From an uncultured Bacteroidota bacterium (GTDB taxonomy: Bacteria > Bacteroidota > Rhodothermia > Balneolales > HLUCCA01): 64,000 nt of DNA. This document shows positions 3,658 through 53,934 of this stretch, piece after piece (position 1 is the stretch's first letter; each line of letters opens with the position of its first letter). The DNA is taken from positions 66,207-130,206 of the forward strand of contig CAMTWZ010000006.1 of NCBI GenBank assembly GCA_947085565.1, in the 5' to 3' direction. A model generated the notes under the pieces. That model made no database searches, had not been told where the DNA came from, and saw only the letters and a list, made by a program, of their open reading frames with translations. Both the position numbers and the translations under genes were made by a program.

Positions 3658-5433
3658 ATGAAAACGTTATTCCTCACGCCGCTTTTCCTGCTTGCGGCGA
3701 TCAGTCTGAACGCGCAATCGTTCAGCGCCGGACGCGTCTCCGTAACGGTGAAATCCGAGCAGGAAACGGTCGTTCCCGGATCACAAGCCCGGGTCGCTGT
3801 GGTGATGGACATCCAAGACGGATGGCACATCAACTCCCATAAGCCCACCTTGGATTGGTTGATCGGGACCGAGTTGACATTGACCTATCCAGAGGGATTG
3901 ACACAAAGCAGAATCGTCTATCCGCCATTCAAGATTTTCAAATTCGCCTTCGCGGATGATGAACTGGCCGTATATGAAGGGGAAGCGCCGATTTTTCTGA
4001 CGTTGGATATCTCCGCGGAGCTTCCTCCCGGCGCATATGCCGTCGAGGGACGCTTACGCGTTCAGGCCTGCGACGACCAGACCTGTCTTCCGCCCTCCAA
4101 CATCCCCGTGGCCTTCACGGTAACCGTAGGCGATGCGATGGTCGCCTCGAAGGATGGATCGTATTTCGATGGCGCGGCGAGCGGCACTGCCGATGGAGGG
4201 TTCATCACCTTCGACCAAGCCGGTGAACAGAACGCCATCGCGCAGCTCATCGACGAAAGCGGTTTGTTGTGGACATTCATCACCATCTTTTTCATCGGCT
4301 TGGCGCTGAATCTGACGCCCTGCGTGTATCCGATGCTCACGGTCACCGTGTCCATCTTCGGAAACCAGACGGATAGTAACATCCTCCGGGTCTTCTCCAA
4401 AGCCCTGATCTATGTGCTCGGCATCGCCACGATGTACAGCGTTCTGGGTGTGCTGGCGGCCTTGAGCGGTGGCTTGTTCGGTAGCGTCTTGCAATCACCC
4501 TGGGTCTTGTTCGCCATCGGTGTGATGCTTTTCGCGCTGGCACTGAGCTCCTTCGGTGTGTATGAAATCACGCTTCCGTATTGGCTCACCAGCAAACTGG
4601 GAGGAACGCAGTCCACCGGCTTCATCGGCGTGTATCTGTCGGGATTGGTGGTGGGCGTGTTCGCCGCGCCGTGCATCGGTCCGCCGGTGATCGCTTTGTT
4701 GGCCTTCGTAGGCGCCAAAGGGGATGTCTTTTTCGGATTCTGGAGCTTTTTCATCCTCTCGCTCGGACTCGGACTCCCGTATCTCATCCTCGGCACCTTC
4801 AGCGGCCTGCTGACCAAACTTCCCCGTTCCGGCGTGTGGATGATCTGGGTGAAAAAGCTCTTCGGTGTGGTGCTCGTGGGCGTGGCCTTGTTCTACATCG
4901 GTTTGGCGTTCTTCCCGAAACTCACGGTGTGGGTCATTCCTGCGACCTTGCTCATCGGCGGCGTCTATCTCGGATTCATCGAACGAAGCGGCTTTAACCA
5001 ACCACGGTTCCGAACCTTCAAATGGCTCTTGGGTATCGCGGCGATCGTCTTCGGGGTGCACATGTCGAACGTTCTGCTCAAGCCGAGCGTGCAATGGACA
5101 CCCTACACCACCGAAGCGTTCGATGCGGCCCGTGCTGATGGAAAGCCGATCGTGTTGGATTTCTACGCCGATTGGTGCATCCCGTGTCTGGAATTGGACC
5201 GGAGCACCTTCACCGATCCGACCGTGATCGAGACCTTGGAGCCTTATGCGCGGTTCAAAGTGGATCTGACGAATTTCGATTCTCCGGAATCAGAAGCGCT
5301 GCGTCAGCAGTTCGATGTGGCGGGAGTACCGACGATTCTGTTCATTGACGCGAATGGCTTGGAACGGCAAAACTCGAGGGTGATCGGATTCCTTCCTCCT
5401 AAGGAATTTCTGAGTAGGATGGTAGGATGGTAG
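3658..5433 (+). CDS. dsbD: thiol:disulfide interchange protein DsbD (N-terminal domain, membrane core, C-terminal thioredoxin)
   Basis: Signal peptide, a multi-pass core with LNLTPCVYPM and AAPCIGP Cys motifs, and a C-terminal DFYADWCIPC thioredoxin. The last 6 codons and the TAG stop lie inside the 8-nt array. Confidence 0.85.
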   Translation: MKTLFLTPLFLLAAISLNAQSFSAGRVSVTVKSEQETVVPGSQARVAVVMDIQDGWHINSHKPTLDWLIGTELTLTYPEGLTQSRIVYPPFKIFKFAFADDELAVYEGEAPIFLTLDISAELPPGAYAVEGRLRVQACDDQTCLPPSNIPVAFTVTVGDAMVASKDGSYFDGAASGTADGGFITFDQAGEQNAIAQLIDESGLLWTFITIFFIGLALNLTPCVYPMLTVTVSIFGNQTDSNILRVFSKALIYVLGIATMYSVLGVLAALSGGLFGSVLQSPWVLFAIGVMLFALALSSFGVYEITLPYWLTSKLGGTQSTGFIGVYLSGLVVGVFAAPCIGPPVIALLAFVGAKGDVFFGFWSFFILSLGLGLPYLILGTFSGLLTKLPRSGVWMIWVKKLFGVVLVGVALFYIGLAFFPKLTVWVIPATLLIGGVYLGFIERSGFNQPRFRTFKWLLGIAAIVFGVHMSNVLLKPSVQWTPYTTEAFDAARADGKPIVLDFYADWCIPCLELDRSTFTDPTVIETLEPYARFKVDLTNFDSPESEALRQQFDVAGVPTILFIDANGLERQNSRVIGFLPPKEFLSRMVGW

Positions 5434-5439
5434 GATGGT
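5414..5439 (+). repeat. tandem array (GTAGGATG) x3.25, left arm
   Basis: Read directly: units at 5414-5421, 5422-5429 and 5430-5437, plus gt. It encodes SRMVGW-stop of dsbD and abuts the stop codon (5439-5441) of the four-helix-bundle gene. Confidence 0.95.
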
Positions 5440-5789
5440 TACTTCAGAGAGCGACGTAGGAAAAACAGCTGCTTAAGTATGACAACGATGGATGCATTGA
5501 GCTCGTCGTAGGTCGATTTGTCGAGATAACCGAGATCGTGCGACAGGAGTAGTTGATATTCCAATTCCAGTCCGGATCCATGTGCGATTTCTATAAATCG
5601 TTGAAAGTCGCGATCACTGTCACGTGATGATCCTTCGGCGATGTTGCAGGGAATGGACATGCTCGCTCGTCTAACTTGACTCGTGAGCCCATAGAGTTCA
5701 TTCTTGGGAAAATTTGATGAGACCGAATAGATACGTACTGTCAGCGCATGGCTTTCAGACCACACTTTCAATTTCTTATAGTTATTCAT
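5439..5789 (-). CDS. four helix bundle protein (23S rRNA intervening sequence protein / Avd-like family)
   Basis: MNNYKKLKVWSESHALTVRIYSV..FPKNELYGLTSQVRRASMSIPCNIAEGSSR..FQRFIEIAHGSGLELEYQLLLS fits the family pattern. Start set at the internal ATG by parallel with the paralogue at 9395-9766. Confidence 0.85.
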   Translation of the reverse strand: MNNYKKLKVWSESHALTVRIYSVSSNFPKNELYGLTSQVRRASMSIPCNIAEGSSRDSDRDFQRFIEIAHGSGLELEYQLLLSHDLGYLDKSTYDELNASIVVILKQLFFLRRSLK

Positions 5790-5837
5790 TGTGCCCCTTA
5801 GGATGGTGATATCTCTATAGATGCGATAAAGCACGAA

Positions 5838-5865
5838 TTCTTACTCGATTTGCACAGATTTAGGA
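5838..5865 (-). promoter_or_regulatory. conserved leader/promoter motif of the four-helix-bundle cassette (plus-strand TTCTTAC-N7-GCACAGATTTAGGA)
   Basis: The same bipartite 21 conserved nt recur at 9814-9841, 48-49 nt from the ATG in both cases. On the coding strand the motif contains TAAATCTG, one mismatch from TAnnTTTG. Confidence 0.5.
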
Positions 5866-5912
5866 ACGTTCGATATTGAGGTACTAAATACCATCTACTA
5901 ATTACTAATATC

Positions 5913-5952
5913 CATCCTACCATCCTACCATCCTACCATCCTACCATCCTAC
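5913..5952 (+). repeat. tandem array (CATCCTAC) x5, right arm (reverse complement of left arm)
   Basis: Five perfect units at 5913-5952. The last unit contains the stop codon (5949-5951) of the RluA-family gene. Confidence 0.95.
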
Positions 5953-6584
5953 TTCCTCTCAAATTCCATCCACTTTTTCGTGATCGGGTGGAAGAATCCG
6001 AGGCGGATGGCGCGCAGGGCGAGGTCGGTTCCGTCTGATTTTCCGTATTTCCCGTCGCCTTTGAGCGGACATTTCACATGCGCGAATTGCGCGCGGATCT
6101 GATGCGGGCGACCCGTTTCCAGCTCGATTTCCACCGTGGTGGTTTCTTTGTCTTTTTTGACGACCGTGTAATGCAGAACGGCGAGTTTGGCGTCGGCGCC
6201 GGGTTTGTTGTACACCACGACCTTGTTCTTGGTGTCGTCTTTCCAGATGTAATGTTTGAGAGTGCCGGACATTTCAGGTGGAGATCCCATCAGCACCGCG
6301 CGATAGGTCTTCTTGAAGATGCGATCGCGAACTTGTTCGGATAGGCGAGAGGCGGCTTTGCTCGTCCGGGCGAAGACCATGACGCCTGAAACGGGCTGAT
6401 CAAGACGATGCACCAAGCCGAGATAGACATCCCCTGGTTTATCGTATTTGAGCTTGATGTAATCTTTAAGCTCGGTAAGGAGGTCGGTGGTGGCGTGTCC
6501 ATCGGCTTGGGAGGCCATGCCTGCGGGTTTGTCAACGACGAGGAGGTGGTTGTCTTCGTAGATGACGGGGATGTTCATGTGCAT
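5949..6584 (-). CDS. RluA family RNA pseudouridine synthase
   Basis: Motifs LVVDKPAGM, HRLDQPVSGVMVFARTSKAA and GRPHQIR. Confidence 0.85.
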   Translation of the reverse strand: MHMNIPVIYEDNHLLVVDKPAGMASQADGHATTDLLTELKDYIKLKYDKPGDVYLGLVHRLDQPVSGVMVFARTSKAASRLSEQVRDRIFKKTYRAVLMGSPPEMSGTLKHYIWKDDTKNKVVVYNKPGADAKLAVLHYTVVKKDKETTTVEIELETGRPHQIRAQFAHVKCPLKGDGKYGKSDGTDLALRAIRLGFFHPITKKWMEFERK

Positions 6585-6751
6585 GGGAGAAATTCTAAAT
6601 GTTCAATTTTAAAGGTACGGGTCTTGAACCGCGCAGCACTCCCAAACTTAAAATTGTTCATTAATAATTGTCCGCCTGCCACCTTGTCAGCGTATCGCGC
6701 ATGGCACAGGTTTCGCAGTGGGAGTTGCAGAAACACATCAAAAGGAATCCC

Positions 6752-9367
6752 ATGAATCTGAACAAATTCACTGTCAAAGCCCAGGAGGCCGTTCAGGCCG
6801 CGTTGGAATTGGCGGCGGCGCGTTCGCACCAGGCCCTCGACCCCCTGCATCTCTTGTCCGCCTTGGCCAACGACGAGACCGGCGTGGTCCGATCCATCCT
6901 TTCCAAGCTCGAAGTCCCGGTTTCTAGCCTCTCCCGTGCCGTCGATGCCGCGATCTCGCGCCTTCCCGTGGTGCAAGGCGCCGCCGTGTCGGGCTCGTAC
7001 CTGTCGAACGATCTGAAAGCCGTGCTCGACGCCGCGCTCAAGGAAGCCTCCAAGATGGACGATGAGTACGTCAGTTCCGAGCATCTTCTCTTGGCCTTGG
7101 CCGATTCCAAATCCGAAGCGGGGACCCTCCTCAAAGCCGAAAAACTGACCCGCGCCGCGTTGACCAAGGTCATCCTCGAGATCCGCGGTACCCGTAAATC
7201 CGACGATCCGAACGCCGAAACGCAGTACCAATCCCTGAAAAAATATGCGCGCGACCTGAACGAGCTCGCCGAGAAGAACAAGCTCGATCCGGTGATCGGC
7301 CGCGATGGCGAAATCCGACGCGTCATGCAGATCCTCACGCGCCGCACCAAGAACAACCCGGTTTTGGTCGGCGAGCCCGGCGTGGGCAAGACGGCCATCG
7401 CCGAGGGCTTGGCCCTGCGGATCGTGACGGGAGATGTTCCTGAAGGACTCAAAACCAAGCGCATCGTCGCCCTCGACATGGGTGCGCTCGTGGCCGGAAC
7501 CAAGTTCCGTGGCGAATTCGAAGACCGCCTGAAAGCCGTGATCCGCGAAGTGGAAGACTCGAACGGCGAAATCATCCTGTTCATCGACGAAATTCACACC
7601 TTAGTGGGTGCCGGTGCTGCGGAAGGCGCCATGGACGCGGCGAACATCCTCAAACCGAGCCTGGCTCGCGGAGAAATGCGTGCCATCGGGGCCACCACGC
7701 TCACCGAGTATCGCAAGTTCATCGAAAAAGACAAGGCGCTGGAGCGTCGTTTGCAAACCGTTCTCGTGGGCGAGCCGAGCGTCGAAGACACGGTCTCCAT
7801 CCTCCGCGGACTCAAAGAACGGTACGAGCTCCATCACGGCGTGCGCATTTCCGATGCGGCGGTGGTGGCGGCGGCCGAACTCTCGCATCGCTACATCAGC
7901 GACCGCTTCCTTCCAGACAAAGCCATCGATCTGATCGATGAGGCGGCCTCGCGCTTGCGTTTGCAGATCGATTCGATGCCGGAAGAGCTGGATCATGTGG
8001 GTCGTCAAATCCGTCAGTTGGAAATCGAGCGGGAGGCCTTGAAGCGGGAAAAAGACACGTCGCGTCAGGAGCCGATCGAGCGGGAACTGGCAAATCTTCA
8101 GGAATCGCACAATGCCTTGCGCGGACAGTGGGACCGTGAAAAAAGCCTTATCCAGCGCATCCGCGAGCTGAAACTGGCCATCGAAACGGCGCGCAACGAG
8201 GCCGACAAAGCCGAGCGAGCCGGCAATTTCGAGCGCGTGGCTGAACTGCGGTACGGAACCATCATCCAGCTTGAAAAAGAGCTGAATGAAGCGCAATCCA
8301 CCGACAACATCATGCTCAAGGAAGAGGTGTATGCCGAGGACATCGCCGACATCGTGTCGCGCTGGACGGGCGTTCCGGTCAAGAAAATGCTGCAGAGCGA
8401 ACGGAATAAGTTATTGGTGCTGGAGGAGGACCTTCACAAAAGAGTCGTGGGCCAACAGCCGGCGATTGAAGCCGTGGCGAATGCTGTGAGGAGGAGTCGC
8501 GCCGGGTTGCAGGACGAAAGCAAACCCATCGGCTCGTTCATCTTCCTGGGCTCCACTGGAGTCGGGAAAACCGAGCTGGCGCGGGCCTTGGCCGAATCGC
8601 TGTTCAACGACGAGCATGCCATGATCCGCATCGACATGAGCGAATACATGGAGAAACACAGCGTGTCGCGCTTGGTGGGCGCGCCTCCGGGCTATGTAGG
8701 GTATGATGAAGGCGGACAACTGACCGAAGCGGTGCGTCGGCGTCCGTATTCCGTGCTCTTGCTCGACGAAATCGAAAAAGCGCATCCGGATGTGTTCAAC
8801 ATCCTGCTTCAGGTGTTGGACGACGGTCGCCTCACCGACTCGAAAGGAGTGACGGTCAACTTCCGCAACACCATCATCATCATGACCTCGAATCTGGGCT
8901 CGCAGCTCATCCAGCGGAAGATCGATGAATCTGGCGGCAAGATGGATGCGATCGTGTACGACGAGCTTCAGGCGGCGCTGTTGGCGCAGTTGCGGCAGAC
9001 CATCCGTCCGGAGTTCCTGAACCGTATCGACGACGTGATCGTCTTCCATCCGTTGTCGAAAGAGCATCTGCGGTTCGTGGTCGACATCCAACTCACGAAC
9101 GTGCTGGCGCGCCTGGCCAAACAGGGGATTTCCCTGCATGTGCCGGAAAACGTCAAAGATTGGCTTGCGGTGAAGGGGTATGACGCCACGTACGGAGCGC
9201 GGCCGCTCAAACGGCTCATTCAGACGCAGGTGATCAACAAACTGGCCACGATGATGCTGCTGCGCGACGGCGAGTCGAAAGCCGAGTACGATGTACGCAT
9301 CGCGCGCGACGGAGAGCGGCTCGAATTCGCCGAAGTGTTCGATGATGTGAGCGCGTGGGCGGAATAG
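6752..9367 (+). CDS. clpB: ATP-dependent chaperone ClpB
   Basis: Two AAA+ modules ([16 protein letters not shown]), a long coiled-coil middle domain, and a Clp N-domain beginning MNLNKFT. Start set at ATG 6752 rather than the upstream alternative codon at 6668. Confidence 0.95.
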
Positions 9368-9369
9368 GA

Positions 9370-9397
9370 GATGCTAGATGCGGGATGCGAGATGCTA
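9370..9397 (+). repeat. tandem array (GATGCNN) x4, left arm
   Basis: Units gatgcta, gatgcgg, gatgcga, gatgcta, starting 3 nt after the clpB stop. It overlaps the stop codon of the four-helix-bundle gene at 9395. Confidence 0.9.
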
Positions 9398-9766
9398 TCG
9401 ACGTTTGGGAATATCTGACTCCACTTTTTTCATGAAGTTGATCAGCATGGACCGCAGATGATTCACTATTCCTGCTTCTCTATCCAAATCATCATTCGAA
9501 ATATAACCTAGGTCGCAGGCAATGATCAGATGACATTCGACTTCATTAGCGGAACCTAAAGCGATTTCAAGAAAACGATAAAAATCATTCGCTGATCTTC
9601 GCGACGCACCTTCCGCTATGTTCGCAGCGATAGTTGCCACTGCTCTGCATAATTGATTTGTCAGTCGGAAACGCTCCTTAGTAGGAAAATGGTCCGCTAA
9701 TAAGTAAATCTCCTTCGTCATGGTTCGAGACATTTGCCATATAGACAACTGTTTGAAATCTCTCAT
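9395..9766 (-). CDS. four helix bundle protein (23S rRNA intervening sequence protein / Avd-like family), second paralogue
   Basis: MRDFKQLSIWQMSRTMTKEIYLL..FPTKERFRLTNQLCRAVATIAANIAEGASRRS..FYRFLEIALGSANEVECHLII fits the family. The start at 9766 puts the conserved leader motif at the same distance as in cassette 1; 9787 is also possible. Confidence 0.85.
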   Translation of the reverse strand: MRDFKQLSIWQMSRTMTKEIYLLADHFPTKERFRLTNQLCRAVATIAANIAEGASRRSANDFYRFLEIALGSANEVECHLIIACDLGYISNDDLDREAGIVNHLRSMLINFMKKVESDIPKRR

Positions 9767-9813
9767 GTAATTCTCCTTATGGTTCATAATGTTAGGAGGC
9801 CATTTTTGAGGAT

Positions 9814-9841
9814 TTCTTACAAAATCAGCACAGATTTAGGA
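9814..9841 (-). promoter_or_regulatory. conserved leader/promoter motif, copy 2 (TTCTTAC-N7-GCACAGATTTAGGA)
   Basis: Identical 7-nt and 14-nt blocks with the same 7-nt spacer length as 5838-5865. Confidence 0.5.
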
Positions 9842-9857
9842 TAAATAGTCTTGCTTC

Positions 9858-9892
9858 TAGCATCCCGCATCAAGCATCCCGCATCCCGCATC
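9858..9892 (+). repeat. tandem array (NNGCATC) x5, right arm (reverse complement of left arm)
   Basis: Units tagcatc, ccgcatc, aagcatc, ccgcatc, ccgcatc. The last unit overlaps the stop codon (9891-9893) of the OMP gene. Confidence 0.9.
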
Positions 9893-10442
9893 AAAATCTT
9901 AAGGTCACCCCGATATGAAATCTACCTTTCGCTTCACGGAATTTTTGCGCGGCGGAATCGACATCCTGGAAGTTCGAGAAGCGGTATTCCATATACGGTT
10001 CCAAGATCGGAAGCGCGGAAATCGAGACCCCTAACAATCCATAGAAATATGCGGTGTTGTTCTGCTGGCTGGCGGCTCCATCCGGCCTGAAATCCCATTG
10101 TTCGGCACCGGCTCCAACACCTGCGTAGGGATTGAAGAGGCCGAATCGGAGTCCGGCGAGCACGGTTCCGCCGAAATCATAGGCTTCGATGGTGGACGGT
10201 TCCGGACTGAAGATCGGCAGGAATTGCGGTTCGTATTCCGTGTCTTTGAAGTAGCTGGCGTGGATGCGGGTCCGCAGGAAAATGACGGGAATGCGGAAGA
10301 CATCCCGCTCGAACTGAATGCCGTAGCCGTTGGCAGGGGCTTGGTCGCGGCGTTCAAAACTGGCGCCGACGCCCCACTGGGCAAGGGCGGTTTCGGGAAA
10401 GGTGGCAAGGCCGATCAGTGTAAGAAGAAGAAGTTTTTTCAT
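9891..10442 (-). CDS. small outer-membrane beta-barrel protein
   Basis: Signal peptide MKKLLLLTLIGLATFPETALAQ, alternating Gly/aromatic beta-strand pattern, and a terminal F (..GVTLRF). Start set at the ATG that gives the signal peptide. Confidence 0.7.
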   Translation of the reverse strand: MKKLLLLTLIGLATFPETALAQWGVGASFERRDQAPANGYGIQFERDVFRIPVIFLRTRIHASYFKDTEYEPQFLPIFSPEPSTIEAYDFGGTVLAGLRFGLFNPYAGVGAGAEQWDFRPDGAASQQNNTAYFYGLLGVSISALPILEPYMEYRFSNFQDVDSAAQKFREAKGRFHIGVTLRF

Positions 10443-10648: not shown

Positions 10649-10734
10649 GCCGCAGTGGTGAAATGGTAGACACGTTGGACTTAAAATCCAATGAGCCTCA
10701 AAAGCTCGTACCGGTTCGAGTCCGGTCTGCGGTA
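10649..10734 (+). tRNA. tRNA-Leu (anticodon UAA), class II with long variable arm
   Basis: Hand-folded: acceptor GCCGCAG/CTGCGGT, 3-bp D stem, anticodon stem ttgga/tccaa with loop cTTAAaa, an 18-nt variable arm, and T arm accgg-ttcgagt-ccggt. CCA is not encoded. Confidence 0.9.
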
Positions 10735-18577: not shown

Positions 18578-18709
18578 GATGGTAGTTAGTAGCTGGTAGT
18601 TGGTAATTAGTAGTTAGTAGTTGGTTGTTGGTTGTTGTTTGTTGTGGTTTCGAATTTCAGATTCCACCCATCTGTACCACAAACAACTAACCACAAACAA
18701 CTAACTACC
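18578..18709. repeat. low-complexity inverted array pair forming an imperfect long hairpin (no cargo gene)
   Basis: The left side is 7-8-nt units (ggtagtta, ggtagtt, ggttgtt ...) running to gttgtttgttgtggt. A 27-nt loop follows, then the right arm accacaaacaactaaccacaaacaactaactacc. The pair spans from the pgm start codon to the stop codon of the GH47-like gene. Confidence 0.8.
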
Positions 18710-34597: not shown

Positions 34598-34599
34598 CC

Positions 34600-35115
34600 T
34601 CATCGCCCGAAATCGTCCTGAACGCGCACGATGTCGTCTTCATCGGACGGATGCGCCGCATCCGTATGCTGCCAGATTTCCGCCACGATGCCCCATTCGT
34701 CCACACCCACCAAGCGGTGGCGTTCGCCTTGCTTGAGGCTCACCTGAGAGCCCAGCGGTAGCGGCTGATGCGGCGTCTGCTCATCGGTGTCGCTGATTAC
34801 GATCGCCGCATTGCCACCGATCACCGTCCAGATTTCGGAACGGCGATGATGGTATTGCCACGAGAGGCGCGCATTGGGCGCCACGAGCAGGATCTTCGGA
34901 CTGAGTTTCGAAAAACCCGCGAAATCCTCCACATTCAGATGCGGAAAGTATGTGCGGATGAACTGCGGCGCCTGAGCCTCATCCACATAATAGAACCCGC
35001 CCCAAGGGCGCGAATCATCCATGAATGTGGTGCGGAAACCCAGCTCTGTGAGATAGGTTTTCACATCGGCGAACACCGATGATTTGGGTGTGTCGGAAGG
35101 AAATTGGAGTGTCAT
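34600..35115 (-). CDS. type II phosphomannose isomerase-like cupin protein
   Basis: RPWGGFYY, LSWQYHHRRSEIWTV and GERHRL cupin blocks. Start set at ATG 35115 (MTLQF). Confidence 0.7.
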   Translation of the reverse strand: MTLQFPSDTPKSSVFADVKTYLTELGFRTTFMDDSRPWGGFYYVDEAQAPQFIRTYFPHLNVEDFAGFSKLSPKILLVAPNARLSWQYHHRRSEIWTVIGGNAAIVISDTDEQTPHQPLPLGSQVSLKQGERHRLVGVDEWGIVAEIWQHTDAAHPSDEDDIVRVQDDFGR

Positions 35116-51929: not shown

Positions 51930-53186
51930 TTAGGTGTTTTCCAAAAAATAGGTCTGAACACGGTCTAAGAACAAAGCGGCATCATCGCTGTACATATCAA
52001 TCCGATTCCGATCGAAAATCTCCTTGCGGATGTATCGGACCGCCTCGGCATAGGTGTCGTAACGAGCAATATCCGCAATCGCCGAGGCATAGGCGCTTTC
52101 CTCATCCCCGAAAAGAGAGACGATGAACTCATGTTCCATATCCGACATCAATTCGAGGATGAGGGATGCCCTCGGGTCTTCGCTCGGATCCTTATTGTAA
52201 AAGTTCAGAATCGAGGGGGTTTCCTTTTCAACAGGTTCCTCTTTTTCGGCTTCTTCCTCACCAGGCATGAATCTCTGCCAGATCGGAATCACGATCGGCT
52301 CGGGGTCGATTTCAATCGGAGTCACGATTTCAGGTTCAGGTTCAGGTTCAGGTTCGGGCGCAATCTCAGGCTCTTCATCGATCACCGGTTCAGCGGCAAC
52401 TTCCTCCGCCACGACATCCGGCTCCGGAGCGAGAACAGCGATTTCTTGGATGACGTCATCTTCCAAGTCCTCAAAAGGTTGCGACAACAACTCGATCAGT
52501 TTCGATTTATCGACAGGTCGATCGAAATCCAAGAATTCGCGGGCTTCCACTTTCATGCCACGTTCGGCGAAATACGCGGCAAGTAGGTCGGGATCCACGC
52601 CATCGGGCATCAGTTCGAACATGGGGGAGAGCACTTGTCCCCAGTTCAGCGCAGTGTGATGCTCGGTGAGTTTGGAATCCACCGCTCTGAGGATGCGCGC
52701 GGCCTCATCCTTGCTGAGAACATCGATTTTTTTACGGTCCATGTAGCGAACCAGCGAATGAATGAGTTGCGGGTACACACCGGTTTTCGACACGCGCGAA
52801 GCCAGATGATCGCGGGTGAGGGAGGGAAGCGTTCCGTAAAGATAATCGGGCAGCGCGGTAAGCGGCTGAGACAGTTGATCGAGGATGTCTTCGATGCTGG
52901 TTTCCAAGACCGGCCGCGCATAAGAGATAGGTAGACGCGTTTCGGCCCGGATCGCTTCGAGGAATTGCACCCAAGCTTCTTGTACCGCATGGGCGTGCAT
53001 ATCGGCCCAATCGTTCTCTGGAAGAGTCACGGAATCGGCCAGATTCCGCTCTAGCTCCACTTTCACGCGGGCCACCACGAAATCGGGCCATCCGGCGTTC
53101 AATAGTTCGTTCAGGGTGAAATGGGAAAGGTTGTCGGGCAGTTGACCGACAAGCCTGTCGACGATGGATTGCAGTGGGTTTGACAT
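51930..53186 (-). CDS. hypothetical protein with central acidic Pro/Glu-repeat linker
   Basis: A 418-aa uninterrupted ORF, first in a co-directional run with the carboxyltransferase and rarA. I recognise no motif; the centre reads EPEIAPEPEPEPEPEIVTPIEIDPEP. Confidence 0.55.
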   Translation of the reverse strand: MSNPLQSIVDRLVGQLPDNLSHFTLNELLNAGWPDFVVARVKVELERNLADSVTLPENDWADMHAHAVQEAWVQFLEAIRAETRLPISYARPVLETSIEDILDQLSQPLTALPDYLYGTLPSLTRDHLASRVSKTGVYPQLIHSLVRYMDRKKIDVLSKDEAARILRAVDSKLTEHHTALNWGQVLSPMFELMPDGVDPDLLAAYFAERGMKVEAREFLDFDRPVDKSKLIELLSQPFEDLEDDVIQEIAVLAPEPDVVAEEVAAEPVIDEEPEIAPEPEPEPEPEIVTPIEIDPEPIVIPIWQRFMPGEEEAEKEEPVEKETPSILNFYNKDPSEDPRASLILELMSDMEHEFIVSLFGDEESAYASAIADIARYDTYAEAVRYIRKEIFDRNRIDMYSDDAALFLDRVQTYFLENT

Positions 53187-53225: not shown

Positions 53226-53828
53226 ATGTGGCGTTTAACCATCTCAAAACTCACGCATTCTTTTGGCTCGAAACCGGTTTTCGAACCGTTGGAATTCGAT
53301 GCGGACATCCGCCGACTCGGCATTTCAGGAGCGAACGGCGCCGGAAAATCAACCTTGATGCGAATTCTCGCCGGATTGATGGAGCCCTCATCCGGCACCT
53401 TCGCATGGACCAAAGACGAAGTCTCGGTCGTGCCGGCCGACATCCGCCACAACCTCGGTTTTTCCGCTCCTTATCTGGGCATCTATCCGGAACTCACCGT
53501 TCGCGAGAATCTTGACTTCGTAGCTTCCTTGCGCGGATTGGGAGCACCGGAAGTGGCCACCGCCGCCGAACGTCTCGGGATGTCCGATTTCATGGAACAG
53601 CGTGCAGGGTCGTGTTCCTCGGGTCAGCAGCAGCGCTTGCGATTGGCCACATCCATCGTCCATTCACCTGGGTTACTTTTCTTGGACGAACCCGGCACCA
53701 ATCTCGATATCTCAGGGTTCGACACAGTGGCCGCACTCGTTAGAGATTGGCCCGGATCCGTGGTCTTGGCCAGCAATCAATCCGACGAACTGAGTTGGTG
53801 TTTGGAACGGTTGACGGTTGACGGTTGA
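53226..53828 (+). CDS. ABC transporter ATP-binding protein (short, CcmA-like size; no permease adjacent)
   Basis: Walker A GANGAGKST, signature CSSGQQQRL, and Walker B LLFLDEP. The last codons and the TGA lie inside the (CGGTTGA)n array. Confidence 0.8.
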   Translation: MWRLTISKLTHSFGSKPVFEPLEFDADIRRLGISGANGAGKSTLMRILAGLMEPSSGTFAWTKDEVSVVPADIRHNLGFSAPYLGIYPELTVRENLDFVASLRGLGAPEVATAAERLGMSDFMEQRAGSCSSGQQQRLRLATSIVHSPGLLFLDEPGTNLDISGFDTVAALVRDWPGSVVLASNQSDELSWCLERLTVDG

Positions 53829-53832
53829 CGGT
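53808..53832 (+). repeat. tandem array (CGGTTGA) x3.5
   Basis: Read directly. It encodes LTVDG-stop of the ABC ATPase. Confidence 0.9.
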
Positions 53833-53835
53833 TTT

Positions 53836-53934
53836 CACGCTTCCACGCTTTCACGCTTTCACGCTTTCACGCTTTCACGCTTCCACGCTTCCACGCTTTC
53901 ACGCTTTCACGCTTCCACGCTTTCACGCTTCCAC
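53836..53934 (+). repeat. tandem array (CACGCTTY) x12.4
   Basis: Twelve contiguous 8-nt units (Y pattern C T T T T C C T T C T C) plus cac, ending exactly at the ATG of the M29 aminopeptidase gene. Confidence 0.95.

What the first reader, a model, noticed from the sequence alone, without database searches (positions are those of the whole stretch)
5414..5952. Four-helix-bundle (IVS-protein/Avd-like) gene enclosed by inverted (GTAGGATG)n arrays, wedged between convergent dsbD and rluA-like genes
Seen in sequence:
- Three and a quarter GTAGGATG units lie at 5414-5439, and five units of the exact reverse complement lie at 5913-5952.
- The ~470 bp between them contains only a 116-aa four-helix-bundle ORF (minus strand) and its leader.
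- The left array encodes the last six codons and the TAG of dsbD (..SRMVGW-stop) and abuts the stop of the cargo gene. The right array contains the stop codon of the RluA-family gene.
- The interior looks more AT-rich than the flanks by eye (not computed).

Established knowledge: this protein family was first found as the ORF inside 23S rRNA intervening sequences, where the ORF sits in the loop of a long stem that RNase III excises. The DGR accessory protein Avd belongs to the same fold family.

Inference: this is an IVS-like stem-plus-ORF module sitting in a protein-gene junction instead of in rRNA. Any transcript reading through from dsbD would fold the two arms into a >=24-bp duplex. The module may be an insertion element that rebuilds the termini of its neighbours, an RNase III-processed transcription insulator, or both. 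I know of no described system with this architecture.
Basis: partly seen in the sequence, partly recalled or inferred. Interest (0 to 1): 0.75.

Follow-up and report, generated by a model that had tools for sequence, protein, structure and literature searches.

The report
Invertible four-helix-bundle gene cassette with repeat arms
A small, conserved gene of unknown function sits between two mirror-image runs of an 8-base repeat, and this turns out to be one copy of a widespread, apparently undescribed bacterial gene cassette that resembles the intervening sequences of ribosomal RNA genes, inserts at gene ends, and can flip or be swapped.

Summary
(GTAGGATG)3.25 lies at 5414-5439 and its exact reverse complement x5.1 at 5912-5952. 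Between them are only a 116-aa TIGR02436/PF05635 gene and its leader. The arrays supply the last six codons and the stop of dsbD, and the stop of the rluA-like gene.

It is not a one-off:
- A second cassette with 7-nt arms lies at 9368-9892.
- 68% of 76 homologous genes from unrelated metagenomes have matching inverted arms, mostly heptamers (p=1.7e-27).
- Fibrobacter isolates and an Anaerolineales genome also have inverted-repeat arms.

More distant relatives have dsbD and rluA end to end with no cassette, so it is an insertion. Close relatives keep it, with varying repeat numbers and a protein dN/dS of 0.03-0.11. One relative carries a 58%-identical paralogue whose arms carry a different unit, the same on both sides. 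The second cassette is flipped in place in a relative, and its type also occurs at another junction, fur|ftsX, again in both orientations.

Best reading: an IVS-type selfish cassette whose arms pair on read-through RNA and are probably cut by RNase III, as in 23S rRNA IVSs. That step is untested. A strong rival is that the arrays (5-nt core plus 2 variable nt, about 5 units) bind the pentameric protein.

The parts
5414..5439 (.). Left arm of cassette 1: (GTAGGATG)x3.25. It encodes the last six codons and the TAG of dsbD, and its last base (5439) overlaps the cargo TAA.
   Evidence: TRF; inverted repeats; sequence
5439..5789 (-). Cargo gene of cassette 1: 116-aa four-helix-bundle protein (TIGR02436/PF05635) under purifying selection.
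   Evidence: dN/dS 0.08-0.11 against the orthologues in L005 and L006
5790..5911 (-). Leader of cassette 1. It holds a motif (5835-5865) shared with cassette 2 and with the leaders of L007, L176 and L181. The motif may be a promoter or operator; this is untested.
   Evidence: direct repeat D8, 31 nt at 81%; leader alignment A2; sequences
5912..5952 (.). Right arm of cassette 1: (CCATCCTA)x5.1, the exact reverse complement of the left unit. It contains the stop codon of the rluA-like gene.
3658..5433 (+). dsbD, the left neighbour. Its ancestral C-terminus (..EFLRR[IV][DE]xxx in relatives without the cassette) is replaced by the array-encoded RMVGW.
5949..6584 (-). RluA-family pseudouridine synthase, the right neighbour, co-directional with the cargo gene. 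It is about 12 residues shorter at the C-terminus than in the empty-site relative L008.
9368..9395 (.). Left arm of cassette 2: four 7-nt units (GAGATGC, TAGATGC, GGGATGC, GAGATGC) directly after the clpB stop.
9395..9766 (-). Cargo gene of cassette 2: 123-aa four-helix-bundle protein, 42% identical to the first. An upstream in-frame ATG at 9787 would give 130 aa.
9767..9852 (-). Leader of cassette 2, with the shared motif at 9811-9841.
9853..9892 (.). Right arm of cassette 2: about five units of GCATCCC/GCATCAA. It contains the TGA of the outer-membrane beta-barrel gene 9891..10442 (-).
   Evidence: sense-strand fold z=-5.0
18580..18709 (.). Hairpin of 7-nt arrays with no cargo. The G/T-rich arm is 18580-18650, the loop is about 25 nt, and the A/C-rich arm is 18676-18709. 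It fills the spacer between two minus-strand genes and contains the upstream gene's TAG.
   Evidence: fold z=-3.0; relative L187 has only the G/T-rich array

Best explanation
WHAT IT IS. The region is one copy of a compact gene cassette. The cassette consists of a TIGR02436/PF05635 four-helix-bundle gene plus its leader, bracketed by two inverted arrays of one short unit. The unit is 8 nt here and 7 nt in most copies. This is the anatomy of the ORF-bearing intervening sequences (IVS) of 23S rRNA, placed at a protein-gene junction instead.

SHOWN HERE.
- It is an insertion into an ancestrally tight convergent dsbD/rluA junction.
- The two arms always carry the same unit, although the unit differs between cassettes.
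- Repeat numbers drift between relatives.
- The arrays fill the spacer up to the neighbours' reading frames and supply their stop codons.
- The protein is under strong purifying selection.
- Over evolutionary time a cassette can be flipped in place, with breakpoints inside its arms. It can be replaced by a paralogue carrying its own arms. The same cassette type is found at different junctions.
- Inside operons it is almost always co-oriented with host transcription.

INFERRED.
- On any transcript that reads through the cassette, the arms pair into a helix of about 20-35 bp. Because they are periodic, they can pair in any register.
- RNase III cuts this helix, as has been shown for the Coxiella, Leptospira and Salmonella rRNA IVSs. 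This cuts the cassette RNA out of the host transcript, so the insertion is tolerated in operons, at gene ends and in rRNA helices.
- The element persists as a selfish or domesticated passenger and spreads or turns over by recombination through its repeat arms.

UNKNOWN. What the protein itself does.
For: Anatomy:
- Arms, ORF and flanking genes.
- The arms pair in the minimum-free-energy fold of both strands (z about -4) and in cassette 2 (z -5.0).

Recurrence:
- A second cassette with a different unit lies 4 kb away.
- Among 76 homologous genes, the median pairing score is 30 against a control 99th percentile of 22. 68% exceed that percentile (Mann-Whitney p=1.7e-27).
- Period 7 dominates: 39 of 76 upstream flanks against 5 of 300 control windows.
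- 106 of 168 period-7 arrays lie within 260 nt of such a gene.
- Fibrobacter isolates and Anaerolineales genome CP129481 also carry inverted-repeat arms. In Fibrobacter the flanking repeats differ in copy number between strains.

Insertion:
- L008, L011, L012 and L016 have dsbD and rluA converging, with no more than about 110 bp between the aligned ends and no arrays.
- The cassettes show a GC dip.

Arms change together:
- L007 (DsbD 88% identical) has a protein only 58% identical. Its arms are GTACGCTG/CAGCGTAC on both sides, nested inside the old GTAGGATG array.
- The long-leader family uses the units GGATGGTA, CGCTGGTA, GGATGCG and GGTAGAC.

Stability and selection:
- L002, L005 and L006 keep the same junction and the same unit. 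Left/right copy numbers are about 2.5/3, 4/at least 4, and 4/2.
- dN/dS is 0.03-0.11 at dS of 0.5 or more.

Inversion:
- L183 has collinear flanks and a reversed arm-to-arm interior, at 86% identity against 80-85% for the flanks.
- L176 versus L184 shows the same at fur|ftsX.

Same type at another junction.

Operon orientation: both neighbours are co-directional with the gene in 34 loci and both opposite in 3.

Host stop codons: inside or within 10 nt of the array in 43 of 49 loci, and TAG in 23 of 43.

Precedent (PMC4990558): the Coxiella 23S IVS has an S23p ORF in the loop of a 28-bp stem and 2-3 strain-variable tandem heptamers upstream of the ORF. RNase III cuts within the stem, at the start of the first repeat.
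Against: - No RNA-specific signal was found. Within the arms there are 55 G:U against 41 A:C mismatches (p=0.18) and 98 transversion mismatches. Sense and antisense duplex energies do not differ (p=0.18).
- The order of unit variants in one arm is not mirrored in the other (17 informative loci, mean z -0.45). Selection is therefore not for a fixed-register perfect stem.
- Units are a conserved 5-nt core plus 2 adjacent hypervariable nt (12 of 13 arrays). Arrays average about 4.6 units. This fits a periodic protein-binding site at least as well as a stem.
- By TRF, only 32 of 76 loci have clearly inverted arrays. 25 have an array on one side only, 4 have direct orientation, and 13 have none.
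- Arrays with no inverted partner exist, for example 53807-53934.
- No transposase, no target-site duplication and no close empty site were found, so the insertion mechanism is unknown.
- RNase III cleavage was not and could not be tested here.
Confidence: 0.55

Rival explanations
1. The arrays are first of all periodic binding sites for the cassette's own protein. The four-helix-bundle protein forms a pentameric ring (PDB 2GSC holds five chains). Each subunit would read one unit, a 5-nt core plus a 2-nt spacer, on single-stranded RNA/DNA or on duplex DNA. This would be like TRAP or HutP on RNA, or the omega repressor on heptad DNA repeats. Binding would regulate the cassette or mediate its recombination or mobility. 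Arm pairing would then be secondary. This reading is not exclusive of the main explanation.
For: - The unit is a conserved core plus two adjacent hypervariable positions (AGC-nn-TC). The two variable positions are adjacent in 12 arrays and non-adjacent in 1, against a chance expectation of one third.
- Copy number has a mode at 4-5 (median 4.6 upstream, 4.7 downstream), and the homologue crystallised with five chains. PMC4990558 describes a homopentameric toroid.
- There is no positional covariation between the arms and no wobble asymmetry.
- Heptamer arrays more than 300 nt from the gene are 6.5 times denser in loci that carry such a gene: 19.5 against 3.0 per 100 kb, p=2e-21.
- Arrays also occur alone or in direct orientation.
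- The homologue Avd binds RNA and a reverse transcriptase (own knowledge; homology noted in PMC10053308).
Against: - No binding data exist.
- The window protein is not notably basic, judged by eye from the sequence.
- A single-strand RNA binder would recognise only one of the two complementary arms.
- Core type and protein relatedness are inherited together, so their correlation proves nothing.
- Unit cores differ widely between cassettes (GGATG, TCAGC, GGTAGAC, GGATACC), which would require repeated re-tuning of specificity.
- Perfect 26-27-bp complementarity, as in cassette 1, is not needed for this model.
Confidence: 0.3
2. It is a DNA-level switch or foldback-type mobile element. The inverted arrays are recombination sites, and flipping of the interior is a programmed (phase-variable) event, as with the invertible promoters of Bacteroidota. 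Alternatively the arms are terminal inverted repeats used for transposition.
For: - In-place inversion has occurred at two independent junctions.
- The segment is about 470 bp with 26-40-bp inverted repeats, a size typical of invertons (own knowledge).
- The same cassette type sits at different junctions.
- A cassette was replaced inside old arms.
- A conserved leader motif could be a promoter.
- Drosophila FB elements have arms built of tandem short repeats (own knowledge).
Against: - No invertase or transposase is called within about 4 kb on either side.
- Arm sequences differ between cassettes in one genome, so there is no common recognition site.
- The inversions seen separate genomes that are 14-25% diverged. 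They are not variants within a population.
- Homologous recombination between 26-40-bp repeats would give the same result without any programme.
- In operons one orientation is nearly fixed (34 against 3).
- No target-site duplication was seen.
Confidence: 0.1
3. Nothing special: an ordinary bidirectional terminator or mRNA-stabilising hairpin between convergent genes that happens to contain a small gene, or a leftover Avd gene of a diversity-generating retroelement.
For: - The site lies between convergent genes, where hairpins are common.
- The protein is distantly related to Avd: the L007 protein hits NF033474 at E=1e-4, below the cut-off.
Against: - No terminator-like site (stem plus T run) was found at either arm.
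- Most cassettes sit inside co-directional operons, for example leuC|leuD and dprA|topA.
- The arms are periodic, change together and recur with this one gene family.
- The NF033474 score is below its cut-off, there is no template/variable repeat pair in the window, and there is no PADLOC hit.
Confidence: 0.03

Closest known systems
ORF-bearing intervening sequences (IVS) of 23S rRNA (Coxiella burnetii, Leptospira, Xanthomonas, Brucella)
   Same: - The protein family is the same (S23p = PF05635/TIGR02436).
- The ORF sits in the loop of a stem of about 28 bp formed by terminal inverted repeats.
- Coxiella has 2-3 tandem heptamers (GACAGAT) with strain-variable copy number upstream of the ORF (PMC4990558).
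- The ORF is sense to the host transcript.
   Different: - This cassette is not in rRNA. Rfam finds only a tRNA in the window, and the cassette lies between protein genes whose termini it rebuilds.
- The protein is under purifying selection, whereas the Coxiella ORF is decaying.
- Whole arms are periodic arrays.
- Inversion, exchange and occupation of several junctions are shown here.
- RNase III cleavage is shown for the rRNA IVS but is only inferred here.
Cyanobacterial STRR (short tandemly repeated repetitive) heptamer arrays
   Same: - They are tandem 7-bp units in intergenic spacers that can form hairpins, for example between hupS and hupL. Their function is unknown (PMC2670836).
- They resemble the cargo-less hairpin at 18580-18709 and the solo arrays in other loci.
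   Different: - They are described for filamentous cyanobacteria, not for this FCB-group genome, Fibrobacter or Chloroflexota.
- They are not reported to enclose a four-helix-bundle gene.
- No link to S23p or IVS was found in the papers searched.
Avd, the accessory protein of diversity-generating retroelements
   Same: It is a homologous pentameric four-helix-bundle fold (PMC10053308; weak PF22296 hits).
   Different: - The score against NF033474 is below the cut-off.
- There is no reverse transcriptase gene next to the cassette and no template/variable repeat pair in the window.
Invertible promoters (invertons) of Bacteroidota
   Same: A segment of a few hundred bp, flanked by inverted repeats, is found in both orientations.
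   Different: - No invertase is nearby.
- The arms have no shared recognition sequence.
- The cargo is a complete gene.
- Both orientations are seen only between diverged genomes.
Foldback (FB) transposons and MITE-like hairpin repeats
   Same: - The inverted termini are built from tandem short repeats, with unequal numbers in the two arms.
- Cargo-less hairpin derivatives exist in the same genomes.
   Different: - There is no transposase and no target-site duplication.
- FB elements are eukaryotic (own knowledge).
- Transposition is not demonstrated here.
TRAP, HutP and omega repressor: ring or cooperative binders of short periodic repeats
   Same: The target layout matches: a conserved 3-5-nt core plus a short variable spacer, repeated about 5 times at a 5-7-nt period (comparison from own knowledge).
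   Different: There is no evidence that the four-helix-bundle protein binds the arrays. This is an analogy of layout only.

Membership tests
TIGR02436 / PF05635 four-helix-bundle (23S rRNA IVS protein) family | Profile score above the curated cut-off | tested here: met
   PF05635 scores 126.1 bits (cut-off 33.8). TIGR02436 scores 117.8 bits (cut-off 24). The cassette-2 protein scores 112.2 and 111 bits.
TIGR02436 / PF05635 four-helix-bundle (23S rRNA IVS protein) family | Four-helix-bundle fold forming a pentamer | tested here: inconclusive
   There is a sequence match to solved structure 2GSC (XCC0516, five chains) at E=3.9e-20 over residues 4-111. No structure was predicted, and the oligomeric state cannot be tested with these tools.
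ORF-bearing 23S rRNA intervening sequence | Inserted in a helix of the 23S rRNA gene | tested here: not met
   Rfam at gathering threshold finds only a tRNA in the 64-kb window and nothing at E<=5 in 5300-10000. The flanks are dsbD and rluA.
ORF-bearing 23S rRNA intervening sequence | Terminal inverted repeats form a stem of 20 bp or more that encloses an S23p ORF | tested here: met
   The arms are 26-28 nt at 96-100% complementarity. They pair in the minimum-free-energy and centroid folds of both strands.
ORF-bearing 23S rRNA intervening sequence | Excised from the host transcript by RNase III | not testable with these tools
   This needs RNA end mapping or an in vitro cleavage assay. It is shown for Coxiella in PMC4990558.
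DGR accessory protein Avd | NF033474 score above cut-off, with an adjacent reverse transcriptase and a template/variable repeat pair | tested here: not met
   The window proteins give no NF033474 hit at E<=0.01. The L007 protein scores 22.4 bits against a cut-off of 80. The window holds no long near-identical direct repeats. The neighbouring genes are dsbD, rluA, clpB and an outer-membrane protein.
STRR-type heptamer arrays | Tandem 7-nt units in intergenic spacers, able to form hairpins | tested here: met
   This is met by the cassette-2 arms and the hairpin at 18580-18709. Cassette 1 uses 8-nt units. The taxon is not cyanobacterial: the closest DsbD loci are Bacteroidota, Balneolales and Ignavibacteria MAGs.
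Inverton (phase-variable invertible segment) | The same segment is found in both orientations between fixed inverted repeats | tested here: met
   Cassette 2 in the window is inverted relative to L183, and L176 relative to L184. This was seen only between diverged genomes, and not for cassette 1.
Inverton (phase-variable invertible segment) | A dedicated invertase and a shared recognition sequence in the repeats | tested here: not met
   No recombinase gene was seen among the called neighbours. The arm units differ between cassettes of one genome.
Insertion sequence, MITE or foldback transposon | A transposase (or a trans-acting one), target-site duplication, and identical copies at many sites | tested here: inconclusive
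   The cassette holds no transposase, and no duplication is visible at the arm boundaries. The same cassette type (76-90% protein identity, same arm unit, shared leader) sits at clpB|OMP and at fur|ftsX. No near-identical copies at different sites were found in this sample.
Intrinsic (bidirectional) terminator | A G+C-rich stem followed by a T run | tested here: not met
   The terminator scan of 5300-10100 finds no site at either cassette's arms. It found 5 sites, all inside clpB, against 5.5 expected from shuffles.

The most novel reading that the evidence does not exclude
Four-helix-bundle proteins and heptad arrays form a two-part system. The pentameric protein reads its own periodic arrays, one 5+2-nt unit per subunit. 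Through them it creates, maintains, flips or moves array-bounded cassettes and cargo-less array hairpins. This would be a class of mobile element without a canonical transposase. It would also explain the origin of ORF-bearing rRNA IVSs and of STRR-type heptamer repeats, and give this very large family of small proteins of unknown function a first role outside DGRs.
Probability: 0.2. Interest if true: 0.9.

Novelty: new variant of a known kind. Interest (0 to 1): 0.78.

Why it matters
TIGR02436/PF05635 is a very large family of small bacterial proteins. Outside DGR Avd, none has a known function. The origin of ORF-bearing rRNA intervening sequences and the meaning of heptamer (STRR-type) repeats have been open since the early 1990s.

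The data here tie these three puzzles together:
- Most genes of the sampled subfamily, in unrelated bacteria, are bracketed by inverted heptad or octad arrays.
- The arrays reach into the neighbouring genes and supply their stop codons and, in some loci, their start codons.
- The cassettes sit inside essential operons.
- They can be flipped, exchanged and found at different junctions.

This yields concrete, testable hypotheses: RNase III excision from mRNA, protein-array recognition, and arm-mediated recombination. It also points to cultivable organisms in which to test them, namely the Fibrobacter isolates.

There are practical consequences too. Many contigs carrying these genes end at or near the arrays. 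The arrays also alter the annotated ends of housekeeping genes.

Tried and rejected
- Rfam: nothing matched at either cassette in the window, and 20 related loci gave no match at all. No described RNA family covers the arms.
- DGR or defence system: there is no Avd-level score, no template/variable repeats and no PADLOC hit.
- Terminator or promoter scans: none at the arms. The single sigma-70-like hit (5754-5782, + strand) is fewer than the shuffles give.
- Strand-specific RNA signal: the G:U versus A:C count and the sense versus antisense duplex energies were both not significant.
- Positional covariation of unit variants between arms: the unit-order permutation test was negative.
- A precise empty site: the closest relative without the cassette (L008) has only 64% DsbD identity, too distant to define boundaries or a target duplication.
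- The clpB|OMP junction in L008 holds two ordinary genes and no arrays, so it is not informative.
- Loop motif of cargo-less hairpins: none is conserved across genomes. It is conserved only within a genome.
- Array-mediated rearrangement at the hairpin 18580-18709: synteny with L187 breaks there, but no partner array lies at the other breakpoint near 34.6 kb.
- Organism name: the exact-sequence look-ups carried no names. Only FCB-group affinity could be inferred.
- Literature: six searches found no paper on four-helix-bundle genes with flanking heptad arrays outside rRNA. Vioque 1997, on STRR in RNase P RNA, is not held.
- Structure prediction: not run, because the 2GSC sequence match made it unnecessary.

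Full report

Tandem Repeats Finder reports (GTAGGATG)x3.2 at 5414-5439 and (CCATCCTA)x5.1 at 5912-5952, both perfect. The inverted-repeat search gives 26-28-nt arms that are 96-100% complementary in several registers.

The interior holds one ORF, 5439..5789 on the minus strand. It is 116 aa from the ATG that aligns with homologues. It matches PF05635 at 126 bits (cut-off 33.8), TIGR02436 at 117.8 bits (cut-off 24), and the solved pentameric structure 2GSC at E=3.9e-20.

dsbD (3658..5433, +) ends ..SRMVGW-TAG inside the left array. The stop of the RluA-family gene (5949..6584, -) lies in the right array. The cargo TAA overlaps the last base of the left array.

The interior is 43-47% GC against 53-63% in the flanks. 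The arms pair in the minimum-free-energy and centroid folds of both strands, with z = -4.0 and -3.75 and 0 of 100 shuffles folding as well.

2. IT IS NOT UNIQUE IN THE WINDOW

A second PF05635 gene, 9395..9766 on the minus strand and 42% identical to the first, lies 4 kb away between clpB and an outer-membrane beta-barrel gene. It too is bracketed by inverted arrays, but of a 7-nt unit: GAGATGC-like x4 at 9368-9395 and GCATCCC-like x5 at 9853-9892. In the sense-strand fold its arms pair, with z = -5.0.

The two leaders share a 31-nt motif at 81% identity, at 5835-5865 and 9811-9841.

A third structure, at 18580-18709, is a hairpin of 7-nt arrays with no cargo. It fills a spacer between two co-directional genes.

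3. RELATIVES OF CASSETTE 1

Metagenome contigs with an 84-90% identical protein (L002-L006) keep the gene at the same dsbD/rluA junction with the same unit. Copy numbers differ. Left/right counts are 3.25/5.1 in the window, about 2.5/3 in L002, 4/at least 4 in L005, and 4/2 in L006.

The protein evolves under purifying selection, with dN/dS of 0.03-0.11 at dS of 0.5 or more. The arm unit is unchanged over that distance. So the gene is functional, and the arms are either constrained or continuously homogenised.

L007 has a DsbD 88% identical to the window's, which is closer than L002's 85%. Yet it carries a protein only 58% identical. Its arms are GTACGCTG on the dsbD side and (CCAGCGTA)n on the other, nested inside a retained GTAGGATG array. 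That is a cassette exchange, with the unit changed on both sides.

More distant genomes show the ancestral state. L008 (DsbD 64%) and three Balneolales MAGs (about 57%) have dsbD and rluA converging. No more than about 110 bp separates the aligned ends, and there are no arrays and no gene. DsbD there ends ..EFLRR[IV][DE]xxx, and in L008 RluA runs about 12 residues longer. The insertion therefore replaced both C-termini with array-encoded sequence. The other 79 dsbD loci (about 1.2 Mb) hold no four-helix-bundle gene.

4. GENERALITY

Eighty metagenome loci with proteins 43-53% identical to the window's were fetched. Together with the window and L007, 76 genes had both flanks available.

- Pairing between the 220 nt upstream and the 170 nt downstream gives a median score of 30. 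Six hundred random pseudo-genes give a mean of 16.4 and a 99th percentile of 22. 68% of the genes exceed that percentile (Mann-Whitney p=1.7e-27).
- The arms are periodic. Period 7 occurs in 39 of 76 upstream and 31 of 76 downstream flanks, and period 8 in only 4 and 3. Period 7 occurs in 5 of 300 control windows.
- Of 168 period-7 arrays in 1.64 Mb, 106 lie within 260 nt of such a gene.
- By TRF alone, 32 loci are inverted, 4 are direct, 25 have an array on one side, 2 are ambiguous and 13 have none.
- Named genomes show related architecture. Fibrobacter isolates have it between lysS and lolE, with inverted-repeat arms and flanking repeats that differ in copy number between strains. Anaerolineales CP129481 has it too.

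One caveat applies. The sample is the subfamily closest to the window protein, so the two-thirds figure applies to that subfamily.

5. FINE STRUCTURE

- The commonest unit is T[C/T/A]AGC plus two variable bases. In arrays with exactly two variable positions, those positions are adjacent in 12 of 13, against one third by chance. Arrays hold a median of 4.6 units upstream and 4.7 downstream.
- The downstream arm usually starts at the cargo stop codon. The upstream arm often ends 18-25 nt before the ATG.
- The upstream host gene's stop lies inside or within 10 nt of the array in 43 of 49 loci. It is TAG in 23 of 43, against about 26% background. The rebuilt termini seen in the window are therefore the rule.
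- In L149 and L173 the arrays even supply start codons of downstream host genes.
- The same junctions recur in different organisms: dprA|topA, leuC|leuD, and a fumarylacetoacetase/homogentisate dioxygenase pair. There the cargo protein is far more diverged than the flanks, for example 67% against 94%.
- Inside co-directional gene pairs the cargo is co-oriented with both neighbours in 34 loci and opposed to both in 3.

6. DNA DYNAMICS

Cassette 2 gave the clearest results.

- L183 has a 90% identical protein and collinear clpB and outer-membrane-protein flanks at 85% and 80% nucleotide identity. Its arm-to-arm interior is reversed, at 86% identity. The interior was therefore flipped in place, with breakpoints in the arms.
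- The same cassette type, defined by its arm unit GGATGCN, its leader motif and 80-82% protein identity, occurs at a different junction, fur|ftsX. There it is again found in both orientations in two related genomes: L176 against L184-L186.
- L181 and L182 have related leaders but GGTAGAC arms, with 6 and 3 copies.

Arms therefore travel with the gene, diverge in concert, and act as recombination substrates.

Heptamer arrays more than 300 nt from the gene are 6.5 times denser in these loci than in gene-free dsbD loci: 19.5 against 3.0 per 100 kb (p=2e-21). Cargo-less array hairpins occur in several genomes.

At the window's own cargo-less hairpin, a relative (L187) keeps only the G/T-rich array, and synteny breaks there.

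7. MECHANISM

What is shown is the anatomy, the insertion, the concerted change of the arms, the inversion and exchange, the purifying selection, and the orientation bias. What follows is inference.

On read-through transcripts the arms pair, in any register because they are periodic. RNase III then cuts the helix, as has been demonstrated for S23p-bearing 23S rRNA IVSs. The Coxiella IVS has a 28-bp stem and 2-3 strain-variable tandem heptamers upstream of the ORF, and RNase III cuts within the stem, at the start of the first repeat (PMC4990558). Such RNA-level excision would explain why the cassette is tolerated between leuC and leuD, at gene ends and in rRNA helices, and why it must be sense to host transcription.

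Four results count against a simple stem:
- Wobble pairs show no strand asymmetry: 55 G:U against 41 A:C (p=0.18), plus 98 transversion mismatches.
- Sense and antisense duplex energies do not differ (p=0.18).
- The order of unit variants is not mirrored between the arms.
- The 5+2 unit with about five copies looks like a periodic binding site for a pentameric protein.

I therefore keep protein-array recognition as a strong rival that does not exclude the main model. A programmed DNA switch is a weaker rival. An ordinary terminator or a DGR remnant is essentially excluded.

8. COMPARISON WITH WHAT IS KNOWN, AND NOVELTY

- Membership in TIGR02436/PF05635 is met.
- Membership in '23S rRNA IVS' fails on location but is met on stem-plus-ORF anatomy. 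The RNase III step cannot be tested here.
- Avd membership is not met.
- Cyanobacterial STRR heptamers that form intergenic hairpins of unknown function (PMC2670836) are the closest known relatives of the arms themselves.
- Six literature searches found no description of four-helix-bundle genes bracketed by heptad arrays outside rRNA, nor of their inversion or exchange. Subscription-journal papers are largely not searchable here.

I rate the finding a new variant of a known kind: IVS-type elements living in mRNA contexts, with a general repeat-arm rule. Interest is high because it links three old puzzles and is directly testable.

Noticed in passing
window 53807-53934: Two abutting arrays, (ACGGTTG)x4 and (TTTCACGC)x12.8, fill the whole spacer between an ABC-transporter ATPase gene and an aminopeptidase gene on the same strand. 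The first array appears to supply the upstream TGA stop, and the downstream ATG follows directly. The window holds no inverted partner and no four-helix-bundle gene nearby.
   Followed up: partly
window 52329-52355: A perfect (TTCAGG)x4.5 hexamer array. Its context was not examined.
   Followed up: no
window 800, 13622, 25136, 38741, 44076, 58275: A dispersed 30-44-nt repeat encoding ..NYPNPFNP... This looks like the C-terminal sorting domain of type IX secretion substrates and fits an FCB-group (Bacteroidota-like) organism.
   Followed up: no
window 10649-10734; L187 1079-1841: A tRNA gene lies just beyond the outer-membrane gene next to cassette 2. In relative L187 a YhaV/PrlF toxin-antitoxin pair sits between this tRNA and the methyltransferase gene. 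The window lacks it.
   Followed up: partly
L002 3185-3730 (also L003, L004): In this relative the cargo gene has lost its stop codon. It reads on for 65 more codons through the stop-free strand of the array and antisense into dsbD, giving a called product of 181 aa.
   Followed up: no
L149 1360-1400 and 2790-2830; L173 10355-10375: Heptamer arrays supply the start codon and the first residues of host genes. In L149 two unrelated sugar-pathway genes both begin MNH[K/Q]PSTIN. In L173 a GMC oxidoreductase starts inside the downstream arm.
   Followed up: partly
L149 3318-4110; L096 728-941: Clusters of cargo-less array hairpins with loops repeated within a genome: ..ATCGAATTCC.. three times in L149, and a 34-nt loop twice in tandem in L096. 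They resemble miniature non-autonomous copies.
   Followed up: partly
window 18580-18709 versus L187 6930-6970: Gene order between the window and a close relative breaks exactly at the cargo-less hairpin. The relative's neighbour there corresponds to window 34598-35090. No array lies at the other breakpoint.
   Followed up: yes
L001, L005, L007, L177-L180 (contig ends): Many contigs that carry these genes end at or near the repeat arms. These arrays therefore probably fragment short-read assemblies systematically and may hide such cassettes.
   Followed up: no
window 5805-5830 and the aligned leaders in L006 and L007: The long leaders contain a conserved near-palindrome, CTCTATAGAG..GATATC, between the shared motif and the ribosome-binding site. 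It could be an operator or an RNA hairpin.
   Followed up: no
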